The translations under genes and the position numbers were made by a program. 64,000 bases of DNA. Origin: a virus. Lineage: Duplodnaviria > Caudoviricetes. Below the pieces are notes generated by a model, which saw only the letters and a list, made by a program, of their open reading frames with translations, was not told where the DNA came from and ran no database searches. The stretch lies in IMG/VR virus record IMGVR_UViG_2511231028_000004, positions 1 to 64,000 of that record; one strand, given 5' to 3'. Shown here piece by piece: positions 36,235 to 64,000 of the stretch (position 1 is the first letter of the stretch; each line of letters opens with the position of its first letter).

Positions 36235-36864
36235 ATGAGTTCCGGCGACGAGACGGCTCCGAAGTCCAAGCGCGGCGGTAAACGCCCTGGCGCTGGTCGG
36301 AAGCCGAAGGGACACAAGGCGACCTCAGCGTTGCCGGCGCTCGACCTCGAGGCCGCCCTGGCGGCGCCGGCGCCCGATGACATCGAGTCGACAGCGCAGG
36401 CCTATTCCCGCGGTGCGATCGCCTCGCTGGTGAAGCAGCTCTGCCACGGCAAGAGCGAGAGCTCGAAAGTCAATGCGGCGAACGCGATCCTTGATCGCGG
36501 CTACGGCAAGCCCTCGGTCGACGTCGGGGGTCTCTCGCAGCTCTCGCTGTTCGGCGGCATCCGGCCCGCGGCGGTCGTCGGCGACGAAATCCGGGTCGAG
36601 GCGCGCAAGTACGCCAACCTGGCCATCGAGGTGCTCGGCTCGATCGCCACCCGCGGCGAAACCGAGAGCGCGAGGGTTTCGGCGGCGAAGTCGCTGCTTG
36701 ATCGCGGCGTCGGAACGGTCCAGGTCGCGAAGGTGCCGGAAGGGCTGCAGCCGAAGACGCTGGGCAAGAAGGAAGAGGCCGCAGTGGCCGCCCGCAATGC
36801 CGCCGCTGGCAAATACGCGCCGCCGCCGGCGCCCGGCGCAAGAAGGATTGAGACCGTCCAGTGA
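36235..36864 (+). CDS. Terminase small subunit (putative)
   Basis: RGGKRPGAGRKPK N-terminus; directly before large subunit. Confidence 0.7.
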   Translation: MSSGDETAPKSKRGGKRPGAGRKPKGHKATSALPALDLEAALAAPAPDDIESTAQAYSRGAIASLVKQLCHGKSESSKVNAANAILDRGYGKPSVDVGGLSQLSLFGGIRPAAVVGDEIRVEARKYANLAIEVLGSIATRGETESARVSAAKSLLDRGVGTVQVAKVPEGLQPKTLGKKEEAAVAARNAAAGKYAPPPAPGARRIETVQ

Positions 36865-38804
36865 ACATGATGCCGACGTGGTCGACGGCGTGCCTGGATT
36901 GGAAGCAGCGCATCGTCAACCGGCAATCGCTGGTGACATTCGACGCGCTCTTTCCGGCAGAGGCTGAAGCGGCGCTGTCGATATTCCGAGACCTTCGGAT
37001 CATCGACGTGCCCGGACGCCCGACGATCGAGCAATGTTGCCTGCCGTGGGTCTACGATCTTCCGCGTGCACTCTTCGGCTCATTCGACGCCGACGGGATC
37101 TCGGGAGATGACAACCTCGGGCGCCGGCTTATCCGGTATTTCTTCCTCTGCGTAGCGAAGAAGAACACCAAGTCCACGCTTGCCGCCGGCATCATGGTTA
37201 CTGCGCTCTTGCGCAATTGGCGCGAGAGCGGCGAGTTCTACATCCTGGCGCCGACCAAGGAGGTCGCCGACAATTCGTTCTTCCCCGCGCGCGATATGAT
37301 CCGCGCCGATGAGGAGCTGCTGAAACTGCTGCACGTCCAGGACAGCCAGCGCCTGATCACGCATCGGACGACCGGTGCCTTCCTGAAGGTCGCCGCCGCC
37401 GACAGCGAAACGGTGTCGGGCAAGAAGACGATTGGGCTCCTGATCGACGAGCTCTGGCTGTTTGGCCAGCGCGCCAACGCGGAGTCGATGATCCGCGAAG
37501 CCGAGGGCGGTCTGAACTCTCGTCCGGAAGGGTTCGTGATCTACGCGACGACGCAATCGAACAAACCGCCGTCGGGCATCTTCGATCAGAAGCTGAAGGA
37601 CTTTCGCGATATCCGGGACGGCAAGCTGGTCGATCCACAGAGTCTGCCGATCATCTACGAATTCCCGGAGGAGATGATCAAGTCGAAGGCTTATGAGAAG
37701 CCGGAAAACTGGTTCATCCCCAACCCCAACTGGGGCAAGTCGGTCGATCCGAACTTCCTGATCGGAAAGCGTGCTGAGGCCGCGCGCGGCGGCAAGGCCT
37801 CGCTGATTGACTGGGACGCGAAGTTTCTCAACGTTCAGGCCGGCATGTCGCAGCGTGCCGACGGTTGGGCCGGTGCCGAGCTCTGGGATCGCGGCATCGA
37901 CACGTCGCTCACGCTCGACGCGGTGCTCGATCGGAGCGAAGTCGTGACGATGGGCCTTGACGGCGGCGGTCTCGATGATCTTCTCGGCGCCGGGGTGGTT
38001 GGCCGCGAGAAGGTAACGAAGCGCTGGCTTGGCTGGGCATGTGCGCTCATCTCAACGATCGGGCTTTATCGTCGAAAGGCGAACCTGACCGAGTACAGGA
38101 AGTTCATCGCGTCCGGCGATCTGATCGTGTTTCGCTTTCACAGCAAGGATGCCGAGGAGGCCGAAAGCGACCCGGATGTTGCTGCGCTGCTGGCTGAATT
38201 TCCGCCGGCCATTAGCGTCGAGGGCGAGCTTCCATTCGACATCAAGTTCGTTGTCGACCTGGTGGCGAAGATCCGGGACATTGGCTTGCTTGCCCAGGTC
38301 GGGGTCGACGCTGCCGGCATCGGCGCCATCGTCGACGCGCTGGCCGGCATCGATATTACCCAGGATGCCGAGACGCTCGATGCGGTGCGGCAGGGCATCG
38401 GCCTGATGGGTGCTTACAAGACGGTCGAGCGCAAGCTCGGCGACCGGACCTTCCTCCACTGCGGTTCGGAGCTGCTCAACTGGTGCGTCGGCAATGCGCG
38501 CGTCGTGCTAACGACGACCGCTTCGCGGATCGCCCGCGAAGAAGCCGGCTTTGGAAAGATCGACCCCTTGATCGCGCTCTTCAATGCAGCCCATCTGATG
38601 ACCCTCAATCCGGAAGCTGGCGGACTGTCGGTTTTCGACACCATGGGCGACGACCAAGACCCGCAATCGGATGCTGAATCGGCGGCATCACTCGCCGAAG
38701 AGGCGGCGATCCTCGGCGATCCGCAGCATCCGCGCTTCGAAGAGATGCGCGAACGAGTCAACGCCCGTCTCGCTGCCAACGATACGGATGAATTCTATGC
38801 GTAA
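36861..38804 (+). CDS. Terminase large subunit
   Basis: VAKKNTKST Walker A, LLIDELW Walker B, GLDGGGLDDL, KIDPLIAL. Confidence 0.93.
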   Translation: MNMMPTWSTACLDWKQRIVNRQSLVTFDALFPAEAEAALSIFRDLRIIDVPGRPTIEQCCLPWVYDLPRALFGSFDADGISGDDNLGRRLIRYFFLCVAKKNTKSTLAAGIMVTALLRNWRESGEFYILAPTKEVADNSFFPARDMIRADEELLKLLHVQDSQRLITHRTTGAFLKVAAADSETVSGKKTIGLLIDELWLFGQRANAESMIREAEGGLNSRPEGFVIYATTQSNKPPSGIFDQKLKDFRDIRDGKLVDPQSLPIIYEFPEEMIKSKAYEKPENWFIPNPNWGKSVDPNFLIGKRAEAARGGKASLIDWDAKFLNVQAGMSQRADGWAGAELWDRGIDTSLTLDAVLDRSEVVTMGLDGGGLDDLLGAGVVGREKVTKRWLGWACALISTIGLYRRKANLTEYRKFIASGDLIVFRFHSKDAEEAESDPDVAALLAEFPPAISVEGELPFDIKFVVDLVAKIRDIGLLAQVGVDAAGIGAIVDALAGIDITQDAETLDAVRQGIGLMGAYKTVERKLGDRTFLHCGSELLNWCVGNARVVLTTTASRIAREEAGFGKIDPLIALFNAAHLMTLNPEAGGLSVFDTMGDDQDPQSDAESAASLAEEAAILGDPQHPRFEEMRERVNARLAANDTDEFYA

Positions 38805-39000
38805 CGCCCTTGTTTCGATTGGCAGCTGGCTGGCGCGGACTTTCGACGTCCGCGACGTCATGCTGACGATCGGACTTCTGCTGCTGGCGGGCGGGTTCTA
38901 CCTGGTCTGGCCGCCGGCCGCGCTGATCGTGCCCGGCGCGATCGTCACGGCCGTTGCCGTGTTCGCGAGCCGCATCAACAGCCACGCGGAGGAGGGCTGA
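38797..39000 (+). CDS. Small membrane protein preceding portal
   Basis: Two hydrophobic segments; conserved position in HK97-like phages. Confidence 0.7.
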
Positions 39001-39001
39001 C

Positions 39002-40384
39002 ATGGGAATCCTCAACCGCATGACCTCCGACCAGCGCTATCCGGGCGCTGCGAGGGTTTCCAATCCTGGCCGCACGCTCGCCGGCGTCGCGATCACGCCG
39101 GATTCGGCAATGATGCTGTCGGCTGTCTGGGCCGCCTTCCGCTATCTGTCGCAGACCGTCGCGGTGCTGCCCTGGCACGTCAAGAAGGACGGCAAGACCG
39201 GCCCGGAGATCCAGTCGTCGCACGGCGTCGACTATCTGTTGTGGAAGCGGCCGAGCAAGGAATGGTCGTCCTTTCAGTTTCGCGAGACGCTGACGCATTG
39301 GGCGTTGCGCTGGGGCAACGGCTATGCCGAGATCGAGCAGGATCAGCTCGGCCGCCCCTTCGCCATGTGGCCGATCCATCCGGAGCGCGTGCGGGTCTGT
39401 CGCGCAACCGACCATGAAGTCGACGCGTACGGCGATCCGATCGAGCCGGGCGATCTCTATTACGAGATCGACCAGCGCGGTACGACGATGGGTGGGGCGA
39501 CCATCCTCGCGGCGAAGAACATGTTCCACATTCGCGGATTCGGCGAAGGACCGGTCGGCGTCAACGTGATTGCATATGCCGCCCAGTCGCTGGGCTGGGC
39601 GCGTGCCGCGCAATTGTTCGGCGCGGCCTTCTTCGGCAACGGCATGAATCCTGCCGGTGTCGTCATCAACAAGAAGCCGTTGAAGCCGGATGGGCTGAAG
39701 CGCCAGAAGGCTGAGTTCGATCAGCTCTACAAAGGGCCGAACAACGCCAACCGGACCGCATTCCTGGACAATGAAGCCGACTGGAAGCCGATCGGCTTCA
39801 ATGCCCAGAACTCGCAGCTGATCGAGGTGCACCAGTTCCTGATCGAGGAGCAGTGTCGGTGGACCGGCGCACCGCCGCACAAGGTCATGCACCTGCTGCG
39901 GGCGACGTTCACCAACATCGAATCCCAGGGCATCGAAGTCGTCGTCGACAGCATCTCGCCTTGGGTGAAGCGCTTCGAGGATGAGGCCGAGTTCAAGCTG
40001 TTCGGCCAGAACCGCCAGAAGCTCTACACCAAGATCGACATGCGCGCCCTGATGCGCGGCGACATGGCGGCGCGCATCGCATACTACAAGGGTATGACGT
40101 CGATCGGCGCCTATTCGCCGAACCGGGTGCTCGAGCTCGAGGACGAGAACACGCTCGGCCCCGAGGGTGACATCCACACCATGCAGGGTCAGAACGTCAC
40201 GTTGAAGCAGATCGCAGAGGGCAAGGTTGAGACCGCGCCTGGCGCGCCGCCGGCGCCGACCGAGAGCGACGACGCCGAGCCGGCCACGCCGCCAGAAGTC
40301 GGTGAGGACGAAGAGACCCAAGCGCGTATCGCCCGACGGCTTTACGCGATCGAGCAGCTGATGGGCGAGCCGGCACATGTCTAA
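39002..40384 (+). CDS. Portal protein (HK97 family)
   Basis: [40 protein letters not shown]. Confidence 0.95.
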
Positions 40385-41345
40385 ATCCCCCGTGATGCTC
40401 GCGCGCAGCGAAGCCTCGCCGCCGGAAAAGCCGGTGTCGCTGCTGGAGCGGACCGTTGCGCTGGTCGAGCGTCTCGTCGGTCGCGTCAGCGCGCTCGAGC
40501 AGAAGCCGCTCGGCCGTGACGGTCGCGATGGTATCCAGGGCGAGCGCGGTCCTGTCGGAGAAGCCGGGCCGCGCGGTGAGGTGGGTCCGGTCGGCGAGCG
40601 CGGTGAACAAGGCATGCCCGGCGAGGTTGGCCCTTCCGGCCCGCGCGGCGAGGCGGGCGAGCGCGGTCCGGTGGGGGAAACCGGACCACGTGGCGAGGCA
40701 GGCCCGGTTGGCGAGCGCGGTGAACAAGGCGTCCCCGGCGAGGTTGGCGAACGCGGTGAGCGCGGTCCACAGGGAGAGGCTGGCCCGCGCGGCGAAGCGG
40801 GTCCGCAGGGCGAACGCGGCGAGCGCGGTGAGCAAGGTTTGCGCGGTGAAGGCGGCCCTGTCGGCGAGCGCGGTCCGGCTGGCGAGGCCGGCCCGCGCGG
40901 TGAAGCCGGTCCGGCTGGTCCGATCGGCCGCGATGGGCGCGATGGTTTGCCGGGTGTCCAAGGCGAACGCGGTCCGCAGGGTGAAGCCGGCCCGACGGGC
41001 GAGGTCGGTCCGCAGGGCGAACCGGGTCTACGCGGCGAAGCCGGCGAGCCGGGTCCGCGCGGCGAGGGTGGTCCGATGGGCCCGCAGGGCGATGCCGGGC
41101 CGCAAGGGCCGCGGGGCGAGCCAGGCGAGCCTGGCCCCCGTGGTGAGCAGGGACTGCCGGGCCCGATGGGCAAGCAGGGCCCGCGCGGCGAGGTCGGTCC
41201 CGTCGGCCCGCGCGGCGAGCCTGGTGTCAGCATCGAGATCGGCGATGTCTTCCGAGCCGGCATCACGGCAAAGGACCTCGACCGCGTCATGGTCCGGGAG
41301 ATCACCATCAATGGCGAGACCTTCCAGGTTCTCGTTCCGAATTGA
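40377..41345 (+). CDS. Collagen-like protein (80 uninterrupted Gly-X-Y triplets)
   Basis: 45-aa N-terminal coiled coil + 240-aa G-X-Y + 37-aa C-terminal domain. Confidence 0.93.
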
Positions 41346-42221: not shown

Positions 42222-43670
42222 ATGACCATGAAGAGCGCCCTTCTGGGCGATTACTCGCGTCTCGCCGCTCTCGCTGCGCTTGGCGCTGTCTCCCTCGGTG
42301 CGATCCGCATGGACGCGCCGGTGCTCGCTGACCTCGAGGCGCGCGTCGTCGAGATCAACGCCGCACTCGATGCCTTCCGCGTCCGCGCCGAAGCCGGCGA
42401 GGATCTCACGGACGAAGAGACCGCTGAAATCGAGGAGAGCGCCGGCGAGCTCGAAAAGCTCACCAAGAAGATCAAGGCGCTGAAGCTGCTGCAGCCCACC
42501 GGCCAGGGCCGCCGCAGCGCGCCGGAAGCGCGGACCGAGCCTGCGGGCGGCGGCCAGCGCCGCACCGTCCCGGCCGAACCGCGTCAGGACAACCAGCGCC
42601 ATGGCTTCCGCTCGTTCGGCAGCTTTGCCCAGTCGGTGCTCAACCACTACCGTGGCAACGTCACGGAAGAGGTCGGACGGCTCCGCAACATCGCCACCAC
42701 CTATGGCGGCGAGGGTGTCGGTGCGGACGGCGGCTTCCTGATCCCGCCGACCTTCTCTCAGGAGATCTGGCAGAAGGTGATGGCGGAGGAGAACCTGCTC
42801 AGCCGCTGTACCCCGCTGACGACCGACGGCAACAGCATGATGATCCCGAAGGACGAGACTACGCCGTGGCAGACGTCCGGCGGCGTCCAGGTCTATTGGG
42901 AAGGCGAGGCGCAAGTCCCGTCCGCATCCAAGCCGCTGCTCGAGCTTGGCAACTTCCGGCTTTGCAAGCTGATGGGCATCGTGCCCATCAGCGAGGAGAT
43001 GATGCAGGATGCCTCGGGCCTCGAATCCTGGTTGCGTGCCAAGGCGCCGAGCAAGATGGTGGCCAAGATCAACACCGCCATCATCGCCGGCACCGGTGTC
43101 GGCCAGCCGCTCGGCATCATCCCGGGCTACGGCGCGGTCGGCGCGTCCGTCGTCCAGGTCAGCAAGGCCACCTCGCAGCCGGCCGACACGCTCTGGATGG
43201 CCAACGTCGAAGACATGTATTCCCGCATGTACTCCGGCTGGCGGCGCAACGGGATCTGGCTGATCAACCAGGATCTCGAGCCGCAGCTCAACCGCATGGC
43301 GTTCCAGGCAGCCGGTGCGTCGTCTCTGTTGCCGGGCACCAATCCGGTGCCCGCCTACATGCCGGCCGGCGGGCTGTCGAACTCGCCCTATGCGACGCTG
43401 AAGGGACGCCCGGTGGTGCCGCTCGAGGCCTGCGCCGCGATCGGCGATCTCGGCGACATCATCTTTGCCGATCTCAGCCAGTATTGGGCGCTGACCAAGG
43501 CTAATGGCGGCGTTCAGACCGACAGTTCAATCCATCTCTATTTCGACCAGGCGCTGACCGCGTTCCGGTTCATTTTCCGGGTCAACGGCCAGCCGGCATG
43601 GTCTTCGACCATCGCCCGTCAGAACGGCAGCAACACGCTGTCCTGGGCCGTCGCGCTGCAAGCGCGCTGA
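42222..43670 (+). CDS. Major capsid protein (HK97 fold, with delta domain)
   Basis: GADGGFLIPPTF, YWEGE, AIIAGTGVGQPLGII, LKGRPV, GDIIFADL. Confidence 0.95.
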   Translation: MTMKSALLGDYSRLAALAALGAVSLGAIRMDAPVLADLEARVVEINAALDAFRVRAEAGEDLTDEETAEIEESAGELEKLTKKIKALKLLQPTGQGRRSAPEARTEPAGGGQRRTVPAEPRQDNQRHGFRSFGSFAQSVLNHYRGNVTEEVGRLRNIATTYGGEGVGADGGFLIPPTFSQEIWQKVMAEENLLSRCTPLTTDGNSMMIPKDETTPWQTSGGVQVYWEGEAQVPSASKPLLELGNFRLCKLMGIVPISEEMMQDASGLESWLRAKAPSKMVAKINTAIIAGTGVGQPLGIIPGYGAVGASVVQVSKATSQPADTLWMANVEDMYSRMYSGWRRNGIWLINQDLEPQLNRMAFQAAGASSLLPGTNPVPAYMPAGGLSNSPYATLKGRPVVPLEACAAIGDLGDIIFADLSQYWALTKANGGVQTDSSIHLYFDQALTAFRFIFRVNGQPAWSSTIARQNGSNTLSWAVALQAR

Positions 43671-43798
43671 TCGAACCAATGACGATGCCGCGCGCCGCCT
43701 GACCGCTGGCGCGCGGCCCATCTCTTCCCCGAATTGCTCCGGCGCCGGCGCGGATGTTGCCAGAGGCGCTCTCCTCATTCCCAAAAGGGAAATCTGCC

Positions 43799-44338
43799 AT
43801 GAAGAACGCTCACTTCGTCGAGAAGAACCAGGTGGTGCTCGGCTTCAAGCCGGTCGCAATGAACACCGCGGCCAACAATGGCGACTATGTCAGCCTGAAA
43901 GGCTATGCCCGCTGCGCCGTGATCTTCATCAAGGCGGTCGGCACCGCCGGCGACGATCCGACCCTGTCGTTCAAGCAGGCGACCGACGTGTCCGGTACCG
44001 GCGTCAAGGCGCTCGGCGTCACCCGCATCGACAAGAAGCAGGCAGCGACCGACCTGACCGCGGTCGGCACGTTCACCAAGTCGACGACGGACTCGCCGGC
44101 GACCAATGACACCTTCAACACCACGAATGGCACCTGGACCAATTCGGACCTTGCCGAGCAGGCGGCGATCGTCGTCGCCGACATCAAGGCCGAGGATCTC
44201 GACATCGCCAACGGCTTCGACTGCATCACCTGCAACGTCGGCGACGTCGGCACCAATGCCCAGCTCGGCACGCTGATCTTCGTGCTGCATGAGCCGCGCA
44301 ACATGAAGGAAACGCTGGATTCGGCGATCGTCGACTGA
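43799..44338 (+). CDS. Putative capsid decoration protein
   Basis: Beta-rich protein directly after capsid; NGDYVSLKGY. Confidence 0.55.
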   Translation: MKNAHFVEKNQVVLGFKPVAMNTAANNGDYVSLKGYARCAVIFIKAVGTAGDDPTLSFKQATDVSGTGVKALGVTRIDKKQAATDLTAVGTFTKSTTDSPATNDTFNTTNGTWTNSDLAEQAAIVVADIKAEDLDIANGFDCITCNVGDVGTNAQLGTLIFVLHEPRNMKETLDSAIVD

Positions 44339-44361
44339 CGGCGTTCGAACCCCGATGAGAT

Positions 44362-44387
44362 GAGGCTCCGGCATTTGCCGGAGCCTC
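44362..44387 (+). terminator. Hairpin after capsid/decoration genes
   Basis: GAGGCTCCGGC-ATTT-GCCGGAGCCTC. Confidence 0.65.
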
Positions 44388-44421
44388 TTCACCGCCAACT
44401 CAAGAACCAGCGAGTCCTGTC

Positions 44422-44820
44422 ATGAAAGTCAAGATGCTCGTCACCCCGCCCGGTGGCCGCCGCGAATTCGAGAAGGGCGAGACCTACGATCTCGAGGAGA
44501 GCTACGCGAAGAAGTTCATCTCGCGCAGCTGGGCCGAGCCCGCCGACAAGGCGGCGGAACGGGCCGCGAAGGAAGAGCAGGAGCGTTCTGCTGCGACAGC
44601 CAAGGCCAAGACCGAGCAGGAGGCCAGGGACAAGGCGGCGGCGCAACTCGCGGCCAGGCTCGAAGCCCGCGGGAAGATCATGATCCCGGCCGACATCTCG
44701 AATTTGTCCGCCGGCGATGTCATCAAGCTCGCCCAGTCGCTGAGCGATGACCAGATCAAGACTCCTGACGACGCGATGAAGGCGATCGAGACCGAAAAGG
44801 CTCGCCGCAACCCTACGTGA
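44422..44820 (+). CDS. Hypothetical head-region protein
   Basis: MKVKML..GETYDL..AKKFISRSWAEP, typical small head-associated domain. Confidence 0.7.
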   Translation: MKVKMLVTPPGGRREFEKGETYDLEESYAKKFISRSWAEPADKAAERAAKEEQERSAATAKAKTEQEARDKAAAQLAARLEARGKIMIPADISNLSAGDVIKLAQSLSDDQIKTPDDAMKAIETEKARRNPT

Positions 44821-45140
44821 CGCCGGAAGGCGATCGTCTCGATCGCCATCTCCGCACCTCGATCTTCGAGCTCTCGAAACCAGACGAGCAAGCCACCATG
44901 CGCGGACTCCAGCGGCTGGCCAACGTGACCGGCAATTTGATGAAGCAAGCGGACGCCGAGGCCGATGCCGCGGCGTCCGAGCTCGAGGCCGCCTATGCCG
45001 AGCAGGTGAGCGTCGCGAAGCGCTACTCGGCCTTCGCCAAGCAGGTCTCGCAGGCCTCGAAAGAGGCGATCGATAACCTCAACCAGATCAGCAACATCCC
45101 TTTGCCGGAGTCCGAAGGCTCCGGGAATTCGCAGGGCTGA
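44817..45140 (+). CDS. Hypothetical coiled-coil protein
   Basis: GTGA coupling. Confidence 0.6.
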   Translation: MTPEGDRLDRHLRTSIFELSKPDEQATMRGLQRLANVTGNLMKQADAEADAAASELEAAYAEQVSVAKRYSAFAKQVSQASKEAIDNLNQISNIPLPESEGSGNSQG

Positions 45141-45143
45141 CCG

Positions 45144-45683
45144 GTGATCGACCCGTCTGCGCAAATCCACCGGCTTGCGCTGGTTGAGGATTCCGAGATC
45201 GGTCCGCGGAGCCGCGTCTGGCAGTTCGCCAGCGTGATCCGGGGGACCGTTCTCGGCGCCGACTGCAACGTCGCATCCTGCGCGACGCTCGACGGGCCCG
45301 TCTTCGGCGACCGCTGTATCATTTCGCAGGGCGCTGCGATGGGACCCGGGTTTCGGTTCGGCAGCGACATCTTCGTCGGGCCGAACGTCACGATCTGCAA
45401 TGACCGCTGGCCGCGTGTGAGCAAGTCCGGATTCGACGCAGAGGCGTTCCGGCGCGGCGACTTCACCGTAGTGGTGAAGGATGGCGCCACGATCGGGGCG
45501 AACGCCGTGGTGTTGCCGGGCGTGATCATCGGCAAGCGGGTCATGGTCGCCGCCGGCGCGGTGGTCGATCGCGATATTCCGGACGACCACCTGTTCCGGC
45601 GCGACGGCCGGATAACACCTTTCAACCCGCGACGCAGTCCGCAGCGCATGCGCATCGTGCTGATGCGGCAGGAGGTGGCGTAA
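45144..45683 (+). CDS. Hexapeptide-repeat sugar N-acetyltransferase (FdtC/WbpD-like)
   Basis: IGPRSRVWQFA, VGPNVTICND..PR, GATIGANAVVLPGVIIG..MVAAGAVV. Confidence 0.88.
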   Translation: MIDPSAQIHRLALVEDSEIGPRSRVWQFASVIRGTVLGADCNVASCATLDGPVFGDRCIISQGAAMGPGFRFGSDIFVGPNVTICNDRWPRVSKSGFDAEAFRRGDFTVVVKDGATIGANAVVLPGVIIGKRVMVAAGAVVDRDIPDDHLFRRDGRITPFNPRRSPQRMRIVLMRQEVA

Positions 45684-46297
45684 TGCTGACGGTCGCCACG
45701 CTGCTTTGGGACCCGAACGAGGCCTCGCTGCCGTTCTCGCGCTGCTATGACGAGTCCTGGGTGCGCAAGCTCCACGACGGCTTCGACCGGCACCTGAAGC
45801 AACCGTTCCGGTTCGTGTTGTTCACCGATCGTGACCGGCGGCTGCCGGCGCATATCGAGCAGGTCCGGATGAAGGCGAAGCCCCCGGACTATTCGTCCTG
45901 CATCGAGCCGTATCGGTTCGGCGTGCCGATGATCCTGGTCGGTCTCGACACGATCATCACGGGTCCCATCGACCATCTGGCCAATTACTGCTTGAACGCC
46001 TCGACCATCGCTTTGCCGCGCGATCCCTTCATGCCATCGCGCGCATGCAACGGCGTGGCGCTGATTCCGGAAGGGCAGCAGCACGTCTGGCGCAACCACC
46101 GCGGCGAAAACGATATGGAATGGATGAGGGCGCAGGATCACGTCTTCATCGACGATTTGTTTCCCGGGCAGGTGCAGAGCTTCAAGGGCCATGTCCGTGA
46201 CCGTGGGCTGGCCGATACCCGGATTTGCTACTTTCACGGTGAGCAGAAGCCGCACCAGCTGCCACACGTGCCGTGGATCGCGGAGCATTGGCGATGA
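45683..46297 (+). CDS. Putative GT-A (GT8-like) glycosyltransferase
   Basis: Y..SWV.KL, FVLFTD, GLDTII (degenerate DxD), ACNG, YFHGEQKP. Confidence 0.65.
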   Translation: MLTVATLLWDPNEASLPFSRCYDESWVRKLHDGFDRHLKQPFRFVLFTDRDRRLPAHIEQVRMKAKPPDYSSCIEPYRFGVPMILVGLDTIITGPIDHLANYCLNASTIALPRDPFMPSRACNGVALIPEGQQHVWRNHRGENDMEWMRAQDHVFIDDLFPGQVQSFKGHVRDRGLADTRICYFHGEQKPHQLPHVPWIAEHWR

Positions 46298-46485
46298 AGG
46301 TTGAAGATTGCTTCGTCAATGAGCGCGGGAATGCGATCAGAATGGTCGTAACCGGCGGGGGATCGTTGTCGACTTCGGTGAAGATATTCATGGCTGGCCC
46401 AACTAGCACGGTGACCAACGAAATCACCTTGATGGAAGCGCGGCGCTTGCGTGATCTTCTTAATGAGGTTGTCGGACAGCAATGA
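46294..46485 (+). CDS. Hypothetical protein
   Basis: ATGA overlaps on both sides. Confidence 0.55.
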   Translation: MKVEDCFVNERGNAIRMVVTGGGSLSTSVKIFMAGPTSTVTNEITLMEARRLRDLLNEVVGQQ

Positions 46486-47123
46486 CCTCACGGGAGCTCG
46501 AATACTGGTCGCCCGAACCCCTGTTCAAGGGCGAGACGATCTTCTGCCTGGCGTCGGGTCCGAGCCTGACCGCGGACATCTGCGCGCGCATCCGTGGGCG
46601 CAGGACGATCGCGATCAACTCCAGCGCCGTGTTGGCGCCATGGGCCAGCGTCCTCTTCTTCACCGATTCCAGCTGGTATGAGGCGCGGCGCGATCTGGTG
46701 GCGAACTGGTGCGGCCTCGTGATCTCGATGTCGCGCACCGCCAAGCGAGAATTGCCGGACAAGGTCAAGCGGGTGCAGGGCGAGGGCGACCCGCAGGCAC
46801 TGCCGGGCTTCAGCCGCGGCCCGCATGTGATCCAGCAGGGCCGGTCCAGCGGGCACACGGCGGTGAGCCTTGCGATCGCGCTCGGCGCTTCGCGGGTGGT
46901 TCTACTCGGCTACGACATGCGTTTCGTCGCCGGCCGCGAGCACTGCCATGACGAGTACAAGGGCTCAGCGCGCGATGCCGAGATCTACAGCCGCGAGTTT
47001 GTGCCGGGCTTCGCTGGCTGGGATGAGGCCGCGCGCGCGGTCGGCGTCGAGGTCGTCAACGCGACCGAGGGCAGCGCGGTGAAGGAATTCCGGTTCGCGC
47101 CACTGGACGATGTGCTGAGGTGA
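46482..47123 (+). CDS. DUF115/Maf-like (Cst-like fold) putative glycosyltransferase
   Basis: LASGPSL, IAINSS, FFTD, SSGHTAVSLAIALGASRVVLLGYD. Confidence 0.65.
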   Translation: MTSRELEYWSPEPLFKGETIFCLASGPSLTADICARIRGRRTIAINSSAVLAPWASVLFFTDSSWYEARRDLVANWCGLVISMSRTAKRELPDKVKRVQGEGDPQALPGFSRGPHVIQQGRSSGHTAVSLAIALGASRVVLLGYDMRFVAGREHCHDEYKGSARDAEIYSREFVPGFAGWDEAARAVGVEVVNATEGSAVKEFRFAPLDDVLR

Positions 47124-47133
47124 GATTGGTCGC

Positions 47134-48792
47134 ATGACCCAGCAGAATATCAATACAGGGCTGTTTCCGGAGCAACTTCGCCGTGTCGCCCAAGATAACT
47201 TCGTCGATCTCTATGCGCAGTTGAACTCGGTTTACGCTCTGAGCCTCCAACCCCGCAATCTTAACGCGGGAATGTCCTCAGATCAGCTTCGCGCCGCCGC
47301 GCAGGCAAATTTCAGCGAGATCTATGCTGCTTTGCAAGCGCGCGGCGTCAACGGATCGCAGCAGCATCTCAATGCGGGCCTCGCGGTCGATCGCCTGCGA
47401 TCTTTCGCGCAGCTCAACTTCACAGATCTGTATACGCTTCTTGCCGGAGCGAGCGCTGCGGTCAGAGTTGTTGCCGACACGACCAACAGCTTCTACGTCA
47501 TGGCCCGCAGTCTGCGCGGGACGGCCTTTGCCTATCACTTTATCAGGAATTCCGGCGGCAACACCGCAACGGATCTCGGCGGCTCATGGCCAAACTGGCG
47601 TTATGCCGGCTGTGCCGAATTCCTCAGTGTCTCGCTGGCGCCGACAGGAACGCCCTTGCGGACGTTTTCGAACGACACCGGCGCGCAGGACTACGCCTTC
47701 GTGCTTCCGACTTCGTCCGTCAAGTTTGCCGGCTCCTATCACGGTGTTGGTGCAGGAGGCTCCCTGACCGCCGAGACCCTTACGATCGACGGGCAGGCGT
47801 TCGACCCGACGTCGAGCGCCGCCGTAGGCAGCCAGGTCATCCTGACGCATAGCGTATCGATCACCGATGGTTCCAGTACAGTCACCGTGACCGGCTTCAC
47901 TGTGACGATCGATGCGAGCGGAATCGTATTCAATCCAGGCACGATTTCGTCCAGCGCGGTTCTGTCGACCGCGTTCGTTGGTATGGCCATCGCTACGGGC
48001 TCGTTTGATGAGGGCACGCTCACCCTGACCAGCGGCACCACGGAGTACAAGACGCCGATCTCGACAGGCACGACGACCTATGGCCGCACCTATATGCAGA
48101 AGGCCAATATGGTGAGCTTGCGCAAGACGTCGGATGGTCTGACTGTCCGCGTTTCCCATGGAGGAACGGCGCTTGCGGGTTATCGTCGGACTTCTGTGGT
48201 ACGCGACACCGTCCTCAACCGGGCGAAGCTCTATTTCGATTTCGGCAATTCCGGGGGTGCATTCGGGTCATTGTCCGGATTTACGTGGTCGCAGAGCTAC
48301 GAGCTCGGCGCCGCCGGTGCGACATCGTTCGCCGCCAACCTGATCACCAATGGCGCCTTTGCGGCGAACATCAACAACTGGACGACGACCTCTGGCAGCG
48401 TCGCATGGAACGCGGCGGGCGTGATGCGGCATTCGAGATCCGCAACGGGAACGGACGATCGGAGCTTGCAGGCGATCACGACGGTCGTGGGCGCGCCCTA
48501 CCTGCTCGCGGCAGAGAACACGTACACGCCGGTCGGGCCCGGTAATGCCGGGACCTACGTCAATCCCGGCTCTATTGCGCTCGGCAGTGCATCGAACGGC
48601 AGCCTGATCACGCCCGCGCCGGCCTATGCCAAGGTGGCGTTCGACCAGAACGGGTACAACGCTCATGTCGTTATCCCGACCCAGACGACACAGTACCCCA
48701 TGCTGATCCTGGAGGCACAGGGCGCAGCAAACACACTGGTTGGCGACACCTCGGACTTCGACAACGTGTCGATGTTCGCACTGGCGGCTTAG
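47134..48792 (+). CDS. Putative head/neck fibre with triple N-terminal anchor repeat and C-terminal carbohydrate-binding-like domain
   Basis: 3x NxNxG..LR..AQxNFxxLY; Ser/Thr/Gly-rich beta body; NLITNGAF. Confidence 0.55.
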   Translation: MTQQNINTGLFPEQLRRVAQDNFVDLYAQLNSVYALSLQPRNLNAGMSSDQLRAAAQANFSEIYAALQARGVNGSQQHLNAGLAVDRLRSFAQLNFTDLYTLLAGASAAVRVVADTTNSFYVMARSLRGTAFAYHFIRNSGGNTATDLGGSWPNWRYAGCAEFLSVSLAPTGTPLRTFSNDTGAQDYAFVLPTSSVKFAGSYHGVGAGGSLTAETLTIDGQAFDPTSSAAVGSQVILTHSVSITDGSSTVTVTGFTVTIDASGIVFNPGTISSSAVLSTAFVGMAIATGSFDEGTLTLTSGTTEYKTPISTGTTTYGRTYMQKANMVSLRKTSDGLTVRVSHGGTALAGYRRTSVVRDTVLNRAKLYFDFGNSGGAFGSLSGFTWSQSYELGAAGATSFAANLITNGAFAANINNWTTTSGSVAWNAAGVMRHSRSATGTDDRSLQAITTVVGAPYLLAAENTYTPVGPGNAGTYVNPGSIALGSASNGSLITPAPAYAKVAFDQNGYNAHVVIPTQTTQYPMLILEAQGAANTLVGDTSDFDNVSMFALAA

Positions 48793-48846: not shown

Positions 48847-49491
48847 ATGAGATCGATCGTCATAGTCGCATCGCCTGCCTCGGATACGGCACTGACGACC
48901 CTGGAGCGCGTCAAGCTCGAACTCGACATTTCCTCCGGCGACACCAGCAACGACACGGTTCTCCAGGAGAAGATCGACGAGGCTTCGGACGACATCGAGG
49001 CGTCGCTCGGCTTTCGCCTGGTGCGGGAGAGCGCGGTCGAGACCTTCTGGCATGAGCAATATGACAACGCGCCGGAGAAGCTGGTCCTGGACCGGACGCC
49101 GGTGGCGTCGATCGCGAGCGTGATCGTCGATGGGGTCACGGTTGATCCGTCGGCCTATCGCTATGATCCCAACACGGGCGAGCTGTTCGCGCTCTGCAAT
49201 GGCTATCCGCATGTCTGGATCTTCTGCCAGAGCGTCGTCGTGACCTATGACGGGGGCTACATCCTGCCGGGCGCGAGCAACCGGACCTTGCCCAAGGGCA
49301 TCGAGGGCGCCTGCGTTGCGCTGGTGTCGAGCTTCTGGGCGGCGAAGGGGCGGGATCCGACGAAGAAGTCGGAGGATGTGCCCGGGGTCGGACGCGTCGA
49401 ATATTGGGTGGGAACTGTCGGCGAGGCCGGCGAGCTGCCGCCCGATATTGTTGCCAGGCTTGCGCCCTTTCGAAGGCCGGTGGTGGCATGA
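48847..49491 (+). CDS. Head-tail connector (gp6-like)
   Basis: LTTLERVKLEL, VTYDGGY, LP.GIEGAC. Confidence 0.8.
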   Translation: MRSIVIVASPASDTALTTLERVKLELDISSGDTSNDTVLQEKIDEASDDIEASLGFRLVRESAVETFWHEQYDNAPEKLVLDRTPVASIASVIVDGVTVDPSAYRYDPNTGELFALCNGYPHVWIFCQSVVVTYDGGYILPGASNRTLPKGIEGACVALVSSFWAAKGRDPTKKSEDVPGVGRVEYWVGTVGEAGELPPDIVARLAPFRRPVVA

Positions 49492-61867: not shown

Positions 61868-61929
61868 ATAGCGGCGCGCGCCAATGACTATAGGTTGTGG
61901 AACTCTCACGAGCCATCCGTTCTACCTGC

Positions 61930-61958
61930 TTGACAGCAGGCAGAACGGATCAGCTAAT
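61930..61958 (+). promoter_or_regulatory. Sigma70-type promoter for moron gene
   Basis: TTGACA (61930-35), 17-nt spacer, GCTAAT; IR CCTGCT-TGAC-AGCAGG over the -35. Confidence 0.55.
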
Positions 61959-61964
61959 GGTTGC

Positions 61965-64000
61965 ATGGGGCGAGAACTATCGATGACAGGCGGAAGGCGC
62001 GGGGCGTGGCTTGCCCTCGCGCTCGTCGTCTTCGTCAGCTTGTTCATGTTCCAGCGCCACGTCGGCCGCTATCCCTACTACGCGCTCGACGACATGGATC
62101 AGCTGACCGCCCTCGATGTCCTGCTGATCAGAGGCGGGACCTTGCCGGATCACGTCACGCATCCGACGGCCGGCATGTACGTATTCCTGACCTTGACCCA
62201 CCGGATCGGATATTTGCTGGGTTTGCTGCATTTGCACGATTTCCGGTTCCTCGACCACTGGGCAAACCCGCTGCTCGGGACGGCTGAGCTGATCGACTTC
62301 CTCCGGGCTCACCTGCCGTTTCTAGCCATCGGCAGTTCGCTGTTGCTGGCGTTGGCCGTTACCTCAGCTGTCGGGGCCGGGCCGTGGATGGTGATTATAA
62401 TCTTCCTGTGTATCGCGGTCTCGCGAGCACTTGCCTTCCACACGATCATCTTCCGAACCGACAGCTTCGCGCTGTTTTATGCGGCTGCGGCCGCTTCACT
62501 CGCTGTGTGGGCAGTTCAGCGGCGTGGATGGGTCGCAGTTGCGCTCGCCGTCTGCAGCGGCATTGCCGGTGGTTTCGCCTTCACGTCAAAGCTCACGATC
62601 GTGCCGACAGTCGCCCTCGCGCCGGCCCTGGTTCTGTTCATGATGGTGAGGCGCGACCAGGCCTTTACCGGAGCCTTCCATGCGACGCGGCGTTTCAACG
62701 CCATCGTGTGCATCACTGCGGTGGCCGTCTATGTCGTCTTGCTGGGACTGTCGCAAATCCCGATGGCCTCGACCTTCATCCACACCCGCATCTCGTTTCA
62801 CAATTACGCGCTTTGCGCGGCGGCCTTGCTGGCGATCGCCGGGCCCGGCATTGCCACACGTATCCTGCCTGAGCGCTCGGTGTTCTACCGCTTCTTTTCG
62901 TTCGCCAACCTGATGGCGCTGGGGTTTACACTGTCTTTCCTGGCCCTGTGGTTCGTCATGCTGAGCCCAAGCGGCGGCGTGCGGTTCGTTGCAGCGCTTG
63001 CGCGCATCTGTTTCCTCGGTGTCATCGATCCCGCTCTCGCGCCGGGCTATGCCGGCTTCTGGGAACAAGTCTCAAGCTCGCCCTTTTTGCTGCTGCCGCC
63101 GCTCGTCCTGTTCCTGTTGCTTGGCATCCTGTCCCTTGCTTCGCTACGAGAGTTAGGAGCGCTGACGGTAATCGGCCTGCTGGTCGTGGTTTCAATTCTC
63201 TGGTTCGACCGGATGATCATTCATCAGGACGGGATCTATACCGAGCCTCTGTTGCTGGCACTTTTCGGCCTGATGCTGTCAATGGCTTGGCCAAGGGGTG
63301 GTCTGCCAGTTCGTGCAATCGCGGCCGTCTGCGTCGTGATTCTTCTCGCCCGCGGTGCAGCGCAGGGTGAGATCTCGGAGCTGATGGATGCGGGTTATGC
63401 CGGTTACTTCAAGGAGAGCCGGCAGATTATGACGCCGTACCAGACAGGCAATCAGCAGCAAATCCAGGATGCGCTGGGACAGGCGCTGGTCAGGGATAGC
63501 AGCACGGGGCACGTCGTCTCCGGCCATGCGCGTGAATTGATCTACGCTCAGGCTGCTGACTATCGCGAGGTCGCAACCAGGGTATCCTATGTTGTTCCGA
63601 ACCTTGGCCGTATCGACTGGAGCAGGATCGGTGTGCTTGGAGAAGGTCTCAAGCCCTTCGGGCAGACACGCCGAGAGCTCTGGTTTACCAGTGTCCCGCG
63701 CGAACTCGAGGGCGCTATTATCTACACGCCGCCCGACGATCGGGTAGAGCGCCCCGGCGCCGACTGGCTTAGGATGATTCTTACCTATTGCGGCTTGTAC
63801 GATCAGGAAATCGACGCATGGGTGCGATCGCGCACCGAGATGATACGACCGCGCTCAGACATGAACGTGCTGGTGTTCGTGCCTGCTGATAAAAGAGAGA
63901 GCTTCGCGCTGTCGCCAACGGCGCCCATCGTCGGCACCACCGAGCACCTCTACGTCGGTGTAGTAGTCCCCATCAACGCTCCCGGCGATCTGCTTCGCCG
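61965..64000 (+). CDS. Polytopic GT-C-like glycosyltransferase (partial, runs off window; absent from ORF track)
   Basis: First ~430 codons translated by hand and open; TM1 then YALDDMD acidic loop, HPTAG, FTSK, more than 10 hydrophobic segments, soluble C-terminus. Confidence 0.7.
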   Translation, partial: MGRELSMTGGRRGAWLALALVVFVSLFMFQRHVGRYPYYALDDMDQLTALDVLLIRGGTLPDHVTHPTAGMYVFLTLTHRIGYLLGLLHLHDFRFLDHWANPLLGTAELIDFLRAHLPFLAIGSSLLLALAVTSAVGAGPWMVIIIFLCIAVSRALAFHTIIFRTDSFALFYAAAAASLAVWAVQRRGWVAVALAVCSGIAGGFAFTSKLTIVPTVALAPALVLFMMVRRDQAFTGAFHATRRFNAIVCITAVAVYVVLLGLSQIPMASTFIHTRISFHNYALCAAALLAIAGPGIATRILPERSVFYRFFSFANLMALGFTLSFLALWFVMLSPSGGVRFVAALARICFLGVIDPALAPGYAGFWEQVSSSPFLLLPPLVLFLLLGILSLASLRELGALTVIGLLVVVSILWFDRMIIHQDGIYTEPLLLALFGLMLSMAWPRGGLPVRAIAAVCVVILLARGAAQGEISELMDAGYAGYFKESRQIMTPYQTGNQQQIQDALGQALVRDSSTGHVVSGHARELIYAQAADYREVATRVSYVVPNLGRIDWSRIGVLGEGLKPFGQTRRELWFTSVPRELEGAIIYTPPDDRVERPGADWLRMILTYCGLYDQEIDAWVRSRTEMIRPRSDMNVLVFVPADKRESFALSPTAPIVGTTEHLYVGVVVPINAPGDLLR

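What the first reader, a model, noticed from the sequence alone, without database searches (positions are those of the whole stretch)
45144..47123. Sugar-modification cassette inside the head module: candidate virion glycosylation system
Between capsid/decoration genes and the head-tail connector there are, co-oriented and translationally coupled, an FdtC/WbpD-like NDP-amino-sugar acetyltransferase, a GT-A-like protein (YFHGEQKP; DxD reads GLD) and a DUF115/Maf-like protein. Maf proteins glycosylate flagellin with nonulosonic acids. None has TM segments or its own promoter, so they look like late cytoplasmic enzymes, not lysogenic-conversion morons. Virion glycosylation is known in some actinobacteriophages; I do not know of it for alphaproteobacterial siphophages. 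Likely substrates are the capsid, decoration protein, collagen or the Ser/Thr-rich fibre.
Basis: partly seen in the sequence, partly recalled or inferred. Interest (0 to 1): 0.82.

Follow-up and report, generated by a model that had tools for sequence, protein, structure and literature searches.

The report
Sugar-adding enzyme cassette in phage head genes
A Bradyrhizobium prophage carries, inside its head-gene operon, a conserved set of soluble sugar-modifying enzymes that most likely coat virion proteins with sugars, and relatives of these enzymes sit in the late or head genes of many other proteobacterial phages, including coliphage P1, with no tested function.

Summary
At 45144-47123 four co-oriented genes, not three, are linked by overlapping stop and start codons.

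- **LbH:** an N-acetyltransferase of the FdtC/QdtC/WlbB class.
- **GT8-like:** a GT-A glycosyltransferase that matches glycogenin at Z 17. Its DxD motif reads GLD.
- **s63:**
- **DUF115-like:** a core domain that matches Maf at Z 15.7.

The genes lie between the HK97-type capsid gene and the head-tail adaptor.

In about 100 related loci the LbH gene sits directly upstream of the GT8-like gene. The pair is always co-oriented with packaging, head or neck genes, in at least six different module layouts. The DUF115 partner is adjacent, moved or fused to the GT. Close relatives without the cassette exist, so it is accessory.

P1 pmgQ and pmgO are homologues in an annotated late operon. The host has a nonulosonic-acid pathway.

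The best reading is late cytoplasmic glycosylation of virion proteins (confidence about 0.5). It is analogous to, but not homologous with, the mycobacteriophage Corndog cassette. Neither the acceptor nor the sugars are shown.

First-stage notes report a similar cassette in another genome.

I rate it a new variant of a known kind, interest 0.7.

The parts
45144..45683 (+). LbH (left-handed beta-helix) acetyltransferase, 179 aa, of the FdtC/QdtC/WlbB class of NDP-3-amino-sugar N-acetyltransferases
   Evidence: PF00132 at 2e-17 and phrog_5353 at 4e-37. PDB 4mzu at 1e-31, 7s3u at 7e-30 and 3mqg at 2e-16; the alignment starts at residue 2-8 and the NDxxPR motif is conserved.
45683..46297 (+). GT8-like GT-A glycosyltransferase, 204 aa (phrog_1962). 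GLD stands in place of DxD, and the C-terminal motif reads YFHGEQKP
   Evidence: phrog_1962 at 2e-56. AF2 pLDDT 98. Glycogenin Z 17.0, rmsd 2.6 A over 184 residues. The family profile hits AgtA at 1e-6 and glycogenin at 9e-6.
46294..46485 (+). Small coupled ORF, 63 aa, function unknown, low GC3. It is not conserved in related cassettes
   Evidence: ATGA overlaps at both ends. phrog_12635 at 2e-6. GC3 0.63. No homologue in related loci.
46482..47123 (+). DUF115/MptE-like core domain, 213 aa (phrog_4603), closest in fold to the catalytic domain of the flagellin glycosyltransferase Maf
   Evidence: phrog_4603 at 7e-56; PF01973 at 28.4 bits, below cut-off. AF2 pLDDT 92.8. 5mu5 Z 15.7 over 191 residues, against MptE HPPK 11.2 and Cst-I/II 10-11.
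42222..43670 (+). HK97-type major capsid protein (upstream boundary; candidate acceptor)
   Evidence: PF05065 at 2e-42 and phrog_10 at 1e-48.
43754..44338 (+). 194-aa protein directly after the capsid gene; possible decoration or cement protein and candidate acceptor. It carries a Ser/Thr/Asn-rich insertion in cassette-bearing relatives
   Evidence: Atlas nearest named family is Bbp16 at 0.84, a lead only. The insertion is seen in alignment A4 when compared with the cassette-less L071 and L072.
48847..49491 (+). Head-tail adaptor (downstream boundary of the insertion site)
   Evidence: phrog_442 at 3e-32 and PF05135 at 1e-4.

Best explanation
This is an accessory glycosylation module that is expressed late, acts in the cytoplasm, and modifies virion proteins, most likely head-shell proteins, before or during assembly.

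Proposed steps; the folds and gene linkage are shown, the chemistry is inferred:
1. The LbH enzyme uses acetyl-CoA to N-acetylate a host-made NDP-amino sugar. This creates a donor that the host pool lacks.
2. The GT8-like retaining GT-A enzyme is always encoded immediately downstream of LbH. It transfers that sugar, or another UDP/dTDP-sugar, to Ser/Thr/Tyr of a virion protein or to a growing glycan.
3. The Maf-like DUF115 enzyme adds a CMP-activated ulosonic acid. This host encodes a pseudaminic/legionaminic-type pathway. In hosts without one, CMP-Kdo would be the available donor.

The resulting glycan coat would be non-essential for assembly. It could change surface properties, stability, or recognition of the particle.
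For: **Enzyme identities** are well founded.

**Operon structure:** the genes have overlapping stop and start codons, no promoter-like site in 34-52 kb, GC3 like the head genes, and no TM segments.

**Synteny**
- LbH lies directly upstream of the GT8-like gene in 20 of 20 alphaproteobacterial genome loci and 78 of 80 IMG/VR loci.
- Every labelled structural gene is co-oriented with the pair.
- A head or packaging gene lies on the same strand within 6 kb in 56 of 80 loci, using a limited reference set.
- There are at least six different insertion contexts: capsid to adaptor, portal to scaffold, adaptor to neck, upstream of TerL, TerL-DUF115-LbH-GT, and SU10-like.

**Functional linkage of GT8-like and DUF115**
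- They are adjacent in either order, or fused as GT8-like::MptE-like in P0127, P0133, P0177 and P0234.
- A TPR::GT8-like fusion, P0251, hints at a protein partner.
- The nearest structural matches of the GT are dominated by enzymes that act on proteins or protein-linked glycans: glycogenin, AgtA/Skp1, GlyE/PsrP, UGGT and LARGE1.

**Accessory nature**
- Relatives of the same capsid/adaptor lineage lack the cassette (L063, L071, L072).
- The P1 homologues pmgO and pmgQ (A2 profile 5e-21, A1 profile 2e-37) lie in an operon annotated with late promoter LPpmgL. They are non-essential by CRISPRi (PMC10695390).

**Precedent**
- Corndog gp35-38 (a methyltransferase and three GTs) lie between portal and protease. 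Corndog virions are reported as glycosylated, with gp38 required.
- XacN1 carries homologues and has virion glycoproteins.

**Host supply:** a CMP-NulO-type cluster is present, with a cytidylyltransferase, two NeuB genes, and PseB-like and PseC-like genes.
Against: - No acceptor has been identified. Capsid types differ between the module layouts, so no single conserved substrate protein co-occurs with the cassette.
- Position in a late operon is also typical of morons that have non-virion roles.
- The GT lacks the first Asp of DxD, and the canonical GT8 metal-binding His position is a Tyr with a His two residues later. Activity and metal dependence are therefore unproven.
- DUF115 relatives also include kinases (MptE HPPK, Z 11.2).
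- The host lacks FdtA/QdtA, so the textbook substrate of the closest LbH relatives is not obviously available.
- Hosts such as E. coli K-12 (for P1) do not, to my knowledge, make nonulosonic acids, so the donor cannot be the same everywhere.
- XacN1 authors attributed its glycoproteins to other GTs (ORF328/334).
Confidence: 0.5

Rival explanations
1. The enzymes modify a host envelope glycoconjugate or flagellin (LPS core or O-antigen, capsule, flagellin). The purpose would be to block superinfection or to stop progeny adsorbing to debris. On this reading it is a surface-conversion module that merely rides in the late operon.
For: - GT8 includes LPS core and LOS enzymes: LgtC at Z 16.0 and WbbM at Z 14.8.
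- Maf enzymes glycosylate flagellin.
- LbH relatives work in O-antigen pathways.
- The host has a large surface-polysaccharide locus with NulO genes.
- Morons do occur in late operons.
Against: - There are no membrane proteins, no Gtr- or Oac-type genes and no promoter of its own.
- The placement is never near int/att or tail-fibre genes. It is consistently inside packaging, head or neck modules across at least six layouts.
- Expression only late in lytic growth leaves little time for export of modified polymers and gives no benefit to a lysogen.
- The homologues lie in a P1 operon annotated with a late promoter, LPpmgL.
Confidence: 0.2
2. The module acts on a soluble target rather than a structural one. 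For example, it could re-route or deplete host nucleotide sugars, or modify a small molecule or a non-structural phage or host protein, as counter-defence or host takeover. The DUF115 protein might work as a nucleotide-dependent kinase-like enzyme rather than a glycosyltransferase.
For: - The DUF115 fold also matches MptE HPPK (Z 11.2), SteA (Z 10.7) and thiamin pyrophosphokinase (Z 9).
- The non-canonical GLD motif in the GT leaves its chemistry open.
- No conserved acceptor has been identified.
Against: - Maf stands 4.5 Z units above the kinases and aligns over 191 of 213 residues.
- An N-acetyltransferase of NDP-amino sugars, a GT8 fold and a sialyltransferase-like fold together form a coherent glycan-building set.
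- The fusions link the two transferases.
- Takeover genes are usually early, not in head modules.
Confidence: 0.12
3. The enzymes glycosylate phage DNA (hypermodified bases) around the time of packaging, to evade restriction.
For: - Phage GTs that modify DNA are well known.
- In some relatives the cassette lies next to terminase or portal genes.
Against: - The prophage has no thymidylate-synthase-like hydroxymethylase. The only genomic hit is on another contig.
- To my knowledge, the known DNA glucosyltransferases of T-even phages are GT-B or unrelated folds.
- An NDP-amino-sugar N-acetyltransferase and a Maf-like enzyme have no known role in DNA modification.
- As far as I know, P1 DNA is not glycosylated.
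Confidence: 0.04

Closest known systems
Actinobacteriophage virion glycosylation (Che8, Corndog, Myrna; Freeman et al. 2023, as summarised in PMC12363180 and PMC12619734)
   Same: - Phage-encoded soluble sugar-modifying enzymes sit inside the head module. Corndog gp35-38 lie between portal gp34 and protease gp39.
- They are accessory rather than essential assembly genes.
- The proposed target is virion proteins.
   Different: - The enzymes are not homologous. Corndog uses phrog_6608, 4447, 1721 and 854; this cassette uses phrog_5353, 1962 and 4603. hhalign of gp38 against the GT family gives probability 0.3%.
- The hosts are Gram-negative Proteobacteria.
- This cassette adds an NDP-amino-sugar N-acetyltransferase and a Maf-like enzyme.
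- Glycans are proven for the actinophages and not here.
GT8 retaining glycosyltransferases (glycogenin, AgtA, GlyE, LgtC)
   Same: - GT-A fold: Z 16-17, rmsd 2.6-3.0 A over about 185 of 204 residues.
- Profile-level sequence similarity at 1e-6.
- Conserved second Asp of DxD (D89 is invariant), a conserved Asp that aligns with the Asp of glycogenin's GDQG segment, and the G-x-x-K-P motif.
   Different: - The first Asp of DxD is Gly (GLD).
- The GT8 metal-binding His position is Tyr, with a conserved His two residues later.
- The protein is shorter (204 aa) and does not reach any Pfam model.
- Donor and acceptor are unknown.
Maf flagellin nonulosonic-acid glycosyltransferases (Magnetospirillum Maf, PDB 5mu5) and GT42 Cst-I/II
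   Same: - The central catalytic fold matches: Z 15.7 to Maf residues 253-511, and Z 10-11 to Cst-I/II.
- Both are soluble cytoplasmic enzymes.
- The host makes CMP-NulO-type sugars.
   Different: - Only the 213-aa core is present. The N- and C-terminal Maf domains are absent.
- The window protein is below the PF01973 cut-off.
- There is no sequence-level hit to any solved structure.
- The acceptor is presumably not flagellin.
Coliphage P1 pmgO / pmgP / pmgQ ('putative morphogenetic function' genes)
   Same: - pmgQ belongs to the GT8-like family (2e-37), pmgO to the DUF115-like family (5e-21), and pmgP weakly to the latter (8e-4).
- They lie in one operon annotated with late promoter LPpmgL.
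   Different: - P1 has no LbH partner.
- The genes are not inside a contiguous head module.
- They are non-essential by CRISPRi, and I found no tested function for them in the searched literature.
FdtC / QdtC / WlbB class LbH N-acetyltransferases
   Same: - Sequence similarity of 1e-31 to 2e-16.
- The beta-helix starts at the N-terminus.
- The N-D-x-x-P-R segment is conserved.
   Different: - The gene is phage-borne.
- The host lacks FdtA/QdtA, so the natural substrate is probably a different NDP-amino sugar.

Membership tests
CAZy GT8 / Pfam PF01501 | GT-A fold of the GT8 type | tested here: met
   Glycogenin Z 17.0, rmsd 2.6 A over 184 residues. AgtA 16.2, GlyE 16.1, LgtC 16.0. Model pLDDT 98.
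CAZy GT8 / Pfam PF01501 | DxD metal-binding motif | tested here: not met
   The profile alignment places G-L-D opposite glycogenin D-A-D. Only the second Asp (D89) is present, and it is invariant in 82 sequences.
CAZy GT8 / Pfam PF01501 | C-terminal H-x-x-G-x-x-K-P-W motif | tested here: inconclusive
   YFHGEQKPH aligns with HFLGQTKPW. G, K and P are kept. The His column is Tyr, and a 90%-conserved His lies two residues later.
CAZy GT8 / Pfam PF01501 | Score above the Pfam gathering threshold | tested here: not met
   The window protein has no Pfam hit. The family profile nevertheless finds GT8 structures at 1e-6 to 1e-5.
Maf / DUF115 (PF01973 MptE-like) | Pfam model above threshold | tested here: not met
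   28.4 bits against a cut-off of 34.6. Most close homologues carry a precomputed PF01973 assignment. phrog_4603 scores 7e-56.
Maf / DUF115 (PF01973 MptE-like) | Catalytic-domain fold shared with Maf and sialyltransferases | tested here: met
   5mu5 Z 15.7 over 191 residues; Cst-I 11.1; Cst-II 10.9.
Maf / DUF115 (PF01973 MptE-like) | Flanking N- and C-terminal Maf domains (Maf is about 630 aa) | tested here: not met
   The protein is 213 aa and aligns only to residues 253-511 of 5mu5.
Maf / DUF115 (PF01973 MptE-like) | Transfers a CMP-nonulosonic acid to Ser/Thr of a protein | not testable with these tools
   Only the host's capacity to supply the donor is shown (NeuB x2, cytidylyltransferase, PseB/PseC-like).
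Class II LbH NDP-3-amino-sugar N-acetyltransferases (QdtC/FdtC/WlbB) | Hexapeptide beta-helix with close sequence similarity and no N-terminal nucleotide-binding domain | tested here: met
   4mzu 1e-31 (query 8-160 to chain 2-149), 7s3u 7e-30, 3mqg 2e-16, 3fs8 8e-6.
Class II LbH NDP-3-amino-sugar N-acetyltransferases (QdtC/FdtC/WlbB) | Pathway context that supplies dTDP-3-amino-3,6-dideoxyhexose (FdtA/QdtA isomerase) | tested here: not met
   PF05523 is not found in the 100%-complete host genome. Several DegT aminotransferases are present.
Phage virion glycosylation cassette (Corndog/Che8 type) | Glycosyltransferase genes embedded in, and co-transcribed with, virion structural genes | tested here: met
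   Corndog layout.
Phage virion glycosylation cassette (Corndog/Che8 type) | Homology to the validated actinophage enzymes | tested here: not met
   Different PHROGs; hhalign probability 0.3%.
Phage virion glycosylation cassette (Corndog/Che8 type) | Glycan demonstrated on capsid or tail proteins | not testable with these tools
   This needs MS or glycan staining of virions.
Lysogenic-conversion glycan modification modules (Gtr, Oac) | Integral-membrane components, own promoter, location near att/int or tail-fibre genes | tested here: not met
   No TM-like segment, no promoter-like site, and a head-module location in all relatives.

The most novel reading that the evidence does not exclude
A previously unrecognised virion glycosylation system is widespread in tailed phages of Proteobacteria. 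Its core is LbH plus a GT8-like enzyme, with a Maf-like ulosonic-acid transferase as a third part. Coliphage P1 pmgO and pmgQ would belong to it. It would cap head proteins with host-derived acidic sugars (pseudaminic/legionaminic acid or Kdo), so the capsid would display host-like surface glycans.
Probability: 0.3. Interest if true: 0.85.

Novelty: new variant of a known kind. Interest (0 to 1): 0.7.

Why it matters
In the literature I could search, phage-encoded virion glycosylation is experimentally established only for a few actinobacteriophages. XacN1 is reported to have virion glycoproteins, but the enzymes responsible were not tested.

If this non-homologous cassette does the same job, capsid glycosylation would be a common, convergently evolved trait of Gram-negative phages, from soil rhizobia and Caulobacterales to P1.

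That would have several consequences:
- It would affect particle stability, adsorption to host or environmental surfaces, and immune recognition of therapeutic phages.
- It would bear on annotation: phrog_1962 and phrog_4603 are currently filed as 'moron' and 'other', and the P1 pmg genes have no assigned function.
- It would give a tractable test system, P1 wild-type against delta-pmgO/pmgQ.
- It would add a new subfamily of GT8-like enzymes with a GLD motif.

Tried and rejected
- **DNA similarity.** blastn of the cassette against INPHARED found nothing.
- **LbH in cultured phages.** tblastn of LbH found only weak, unrelated Staphylococcus hits, so the LbH+GT pair is not represented in cultured phages there.
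- **DUF115 against the PDB by sequence.** Single-sequence and profile searches gave no hit. Only the fold comparison links it to Maf.
- **The search for related loci with the wide alignment A1.** It failed for lack of a conserved stretch, so I used the narrower A3. This biases the genome survey toward close (Alphaproteobacteria-rich) relatives, and the taxonomic range should not be over-read.
- **UDP-GlcNAc3N as the LbH substrate.** The idea was that the host lipid-A GlcN3N pathway (GnnA/GnnB) supplies it. The only isolated DegT gene examined (C322) sits beside ManC and MurJ, not an oxidoreductase. The idea remains untested.
- **Comparing cassette-bearing and cassette-less relatives.** Only three cassette-less relatives of the same capsid lineage were found in 650 genomes. 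That is too few for a phylogenetically controlled test of the p194 insertion.
- **p182/p190 as a divergent DUF115.** This protein replaces DUF115 in the portal-to-scaffold layout. It shares only a 31-residue SSG...LG..R..L.G motif (hhalign probability 5%), so the question is left open.
- **The neighbouring note's 'GT-C moron'** at 61884-63998 has no Pfam hit.
- **The Freeman et al. 2023 paper** is not held in the library. Its content is cited only through papers that summarise it.
Full report
**What is there**

The window is part of a prophage in a 7.8-Mb Bradyrhizobium-type genome. The closest homologues of the proteins are annotated Bradyrhizobium.

The morphogenetic genes lie on the + strand in this order:
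- TerL, 36861-38804
- portal, 38954-40384
- a collagen-like gene, 40377-41345
- a ClpP-type prohead protease, ending at 42093
- an HK97-type major capsid protein, 42222-43670
- three small genes, 43754-45140
- the finding, 45144-47123
- a 552-aa fibre-like gene, 47134-48792
- a head-tail adaptor, 48847-49491

The sequence shows four coupled genes, not three. The 63-aa ORF at 46294-46485 overlaps the GT stop and the DUF115 start by ATGA. LbH and GT overlap by one base. No sigma-70-like promoter is found anywhere in 34-52 kb, and terminator-like hairpins are at chance level. The three enzymes have the same high GC3 as the head genes (0.83-0.87). The small ORF is lower, at 0.63. None of the proteins has a TM-like segment.

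**What the proteins are**

*LbH.* This is a hexapeptide-repeat protein. Its best solved relatives are the N-acetyltransferase domain of the WxcM-like protein 4mzu (1e-31), the N-acetyltransferase 7s3u (7e-30), WlbB 3mqg (2e-16) and QdtC. The alignment begins at the protein's first residues. This places it in the class that N-acetylates nucleotide-linked 3-amino sugars.

*GT-like protein.* It has no Pfam hit but matches phrog_1962 at 2e-56. With an 82-sequence alignment of 50%-cluster representatives, AlphaFold2 gives pLDDT 98. The model superposes on GT8 enzymes:

| Structure | Z | rmsd / aligned residues |
|---|---|---|
| Glycogenin | 17.0 | 2.6 A / 184 |
| AgtA | 16.2 | |
| GlyE | 16.1 | |
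| LgtC | 16.0 | |

A profile of the family finds AgtA and glycogenin by sequence, at 1e-6 and 9e-6. That alignment places G-L-D opposite the GT8 D-A-D motif, and YFHGxxKPH opposite HFLGxxKPW. The protein is therefore a divergent GT8-like enzyme. It keeps the invariant second Asp (D89) and the Lys-Pro. It lacks the first Asp, and its His is shifted by two residues.

*DUF115-like protein.* It matches phrog_4603 at 7e-56 and is sub-threshold for PF01973. The model has pLDDT 92.8. It is closest to the central catalytic domain of the flagellin glycosyltransferase Maf (5mu5, Z 15.7, 191 residues). That is clearly above MptE HPPK (11.2), Cst-I/II (10-11) and the mammalian sialyltransferases (about 8). 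It is only the 213-aa core and lacks Maf's flanking domains.

**Comparative evidence**

The GT8-like family has more than 1000 members at 90% clustering. They are nearly all unnamed, and many come from Hyphomicrobiales.

I labelled neighbours by BLAST against reference structural proteins taken from Pfam-annotated contigs. The LbH gene sits immediately upstream of the GT8-like gene in 20 of 20 alphaproteobacterial genome loci. It does so in 78 of 80 IMG/VR loci. Every labelled structural gene is on the same strand as the pair.

The pair occurs in at least six different contexts:
- capsid, decoration, LbH-GT-DUF115, adaptor (this window)
- portal, LbH-GT-p182, scaffold, Gp13-like capsid
- capsid, DUF115, adaptor, LbH-GT, head-closure/neck
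- LbH-GT directly upstream of TerL
- TerL ... DUF115-LbH-GT
- an SU10-like podovirus layout

The DUF115-type gene lies after the GT, before the LbH, or separated from them by the adaptor gene. In four cluster representatives it is fused to the C-terminus of the GT8-like domain. The fused domain is a distant PF01973 member, so the linkage is at superfamily level. One representative is a TPR::GT8-like fusion.

Phages of the same capsid/adaptor lineage exist without the cassette (L063, L071, L072). It is therefore an accessory insertion.

The 552-aa fibre and the 63-aa ORF have no homologue in any related locus. The collagen-like gene is limited to the window's own phage type. Neither the fibre nor the collagen-like protein can be the conserved substrate.

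The 194-aa protein after the capsid gene is a possible cement or decoration protein. The Atlas lead to Bbp16 scores only 0.84. It carries a Ser/Thr/Asn-rich insertion in the five cassette-bearing relatives that is absent in the two cassette-less ones. The sample is small and confounded by relatedness, so this is a lead only.

**Cultured phages**

- **D3 and its relatives:** a DUF115-like gene sits between the capsid and adaptor genes.
- **Citrobacter phage phiNP:** DUF115-like and GT8-like genes lie just upstream of terS.
- **Jumbo phage XacN1:** two DUF115-like genes and a GT8-like gene lie side by side. Its description reports at least two virion glycoproteins, which the authors attributed to other GTs (PMC5852040).
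- **Coliphage P1:** pmgO (DUF115-like, 5e-21), pmgP (weak) and pmgQ (GT8-like, 2e-37) lie in the operon annotated with late promoter LPpmgL, among 'putative morphogenetic function' genes. All three were scored non-essential in a genome-wide CRISPRi screen (PMC10695390).

None of these phages has the LbH partner.

**Host supply**

The host genome has a large surface-polysaccharide locus on contig C192. It includes a cytidylyltransferase, two NeuB-family synthases, a PseB-like dehydratase, PseC-like and other DegT aminotransferases, and GT-B transferases. CMP-activated nonulosonic acids and nucleotide amino sugars are therefore available.

The host has no FdtA/QdtA. It has no Maf-type PF01973 protein other than the prophage's own. 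The prophage has no thymidylate-synthase-like gene that could make hydroxymethyl pyrimidines.

**Interpretation**

Shown:
- three bona fide sugar-pathway folds
- tight operonic coupling
- a conserved LbH-to-GT8-like core with a variable or fused DUF115 partner
- exclusive and recurrent residence in packaging, head or neck modules
- accessory status
- homologues in a P1 operon annotated with a late promoter

Inferred:
- LbH makes an N-acetylated nucleotide sugar that the GT8-like enzyme transfers
- the Maf-like enzyme adds a CMP-activated ulosonic acid
- the acceptors are virion proteins

The layout parallels the mycobacteriophage Corndog cassette. There, gp35-38 lie between portal and protease, the virions are reported as glycosylated, and gp38 is reported as required. 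The enzyme families are unrelated.

I put virion-protein glycosylation at about 0.5. The rivals are:
- modification of host envelope glycans or flagellin, about 0.2
- a soluble or non-structural target, about 0.12
- DNA modification, about 0.04

The remaining probability is unassigned.

**Novelty**

In the searchable literature I found no description of this cassette or of virion glycosylation in alphaproteobacterial phages. First-stage notes of this scan record a similar cassette in another genome. These notes are unchecked and are not independent evidence.

I class the finding as a new variant of a known kind. It is a non-homologous, apparently widespread proteobacterial-phage counterpart of the actinophage virion glycosylation cassettes. 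It still awaits the simple experiment of weighing the virion proteins.

Noticed in passing
window 46294-46485 (+): A 63-aa ORF is wedged between the GT and DUF115 genes, with ATGA overlaps at both ends. Its GC (0.52) and GC3 (0.63) are much lower than its neighbours'. It hits phrog_12635 weakly and has no homologue at this position in any related cassette. The close relative L062 has a different 311-nt filler there.
   Followed up: partly
window 47134-48792 (+): A 552-aa fibre-like protein carries three N-terminal repeats of about 37 aa (N-x-G...R...N-F-x-x-L-Y). It has no Pfam, PHROG or NCBIfam hit and no homologue in about 100 related loci. It is a strain-specific insertion between the cassette and the adaptor.
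   Followed up: partly
window 40377-41345 (+): A collagen-like gene (Gly-X-Y, Scl-like by NCBIfam) lies between portal and protease. It overlaps, in another frame, the 5' part of the long ORF that ends in the ClpP protease. It is conserved in the window-type phages (L015, L020, L062, L074 and others).
   Followed up: partly
window 43754-44338 (+); alignment A4: The 194-aa protein after the capsid gene carries a Ser/Thr/Asn-rich insertion (KSTxxxPATxDTFxTTxxTxTN) in five cassette-bearing phages. The insertion is missing in two cassette-less relatives. This makes it a candidate glycan acceptor, but the sample is small and phylogenetically confounded.
   Followed up: partly
L155 (phage P1) 5941-8499: P1 pmgO and pmgQ, and weakly pmgP, belong to the DUF115-like and GT8-like families. 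They share an annotated late operon with a Ser/Thr phosphatase (ppp). P1 could serve as the model for testing the function.
   Followed up: yes
L004 7471-8019; L005 8591-9163 (and 22 of 80 IMG/VR loci): In the portal-to-scaffold layout, the third gene after LbH-GT is an unannotated protein of about 185 aa (p182/p190). It has a DUF115-like SSG...LG..R..L.G motif. It may be a very divergent replacement of the Maf-like enzyme.
   Followed up: partly
L030 8866-10609; L031 8662-10615: Two Mesorhizobium prophages carry two GT8-like genes flanking the LbH gene (GT-LbH-GT). They lie between capsid and portal genes.
   Followed up: no
P0251 (435 aa): This is a fusion of TPR repeats with the GT8-like domain. 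The arrangement is reminiscent of protein O-glycosyltransferases that use TPRs to bind their substrates.
   Followed up: no
G000 contig C192, about 14-64 kb (L059-L061): The host has a surface-polysaccharide locus with two NeuB-family synthases, one of them fused to CBS and AP-endonuclease-like domains. It also has a cytidylyltransferase, PseB/PseC-like genes, a carbamoyltransferase and several aminotransferases. The likely product is a nonulosonic-acid-containing glycan.
   Followed up: partly
L005 7055-7495: An HslV-family peptidase-like gene (phrog_1040) lies between the portal and the LbH gene in one phage type.
   Followed up: no
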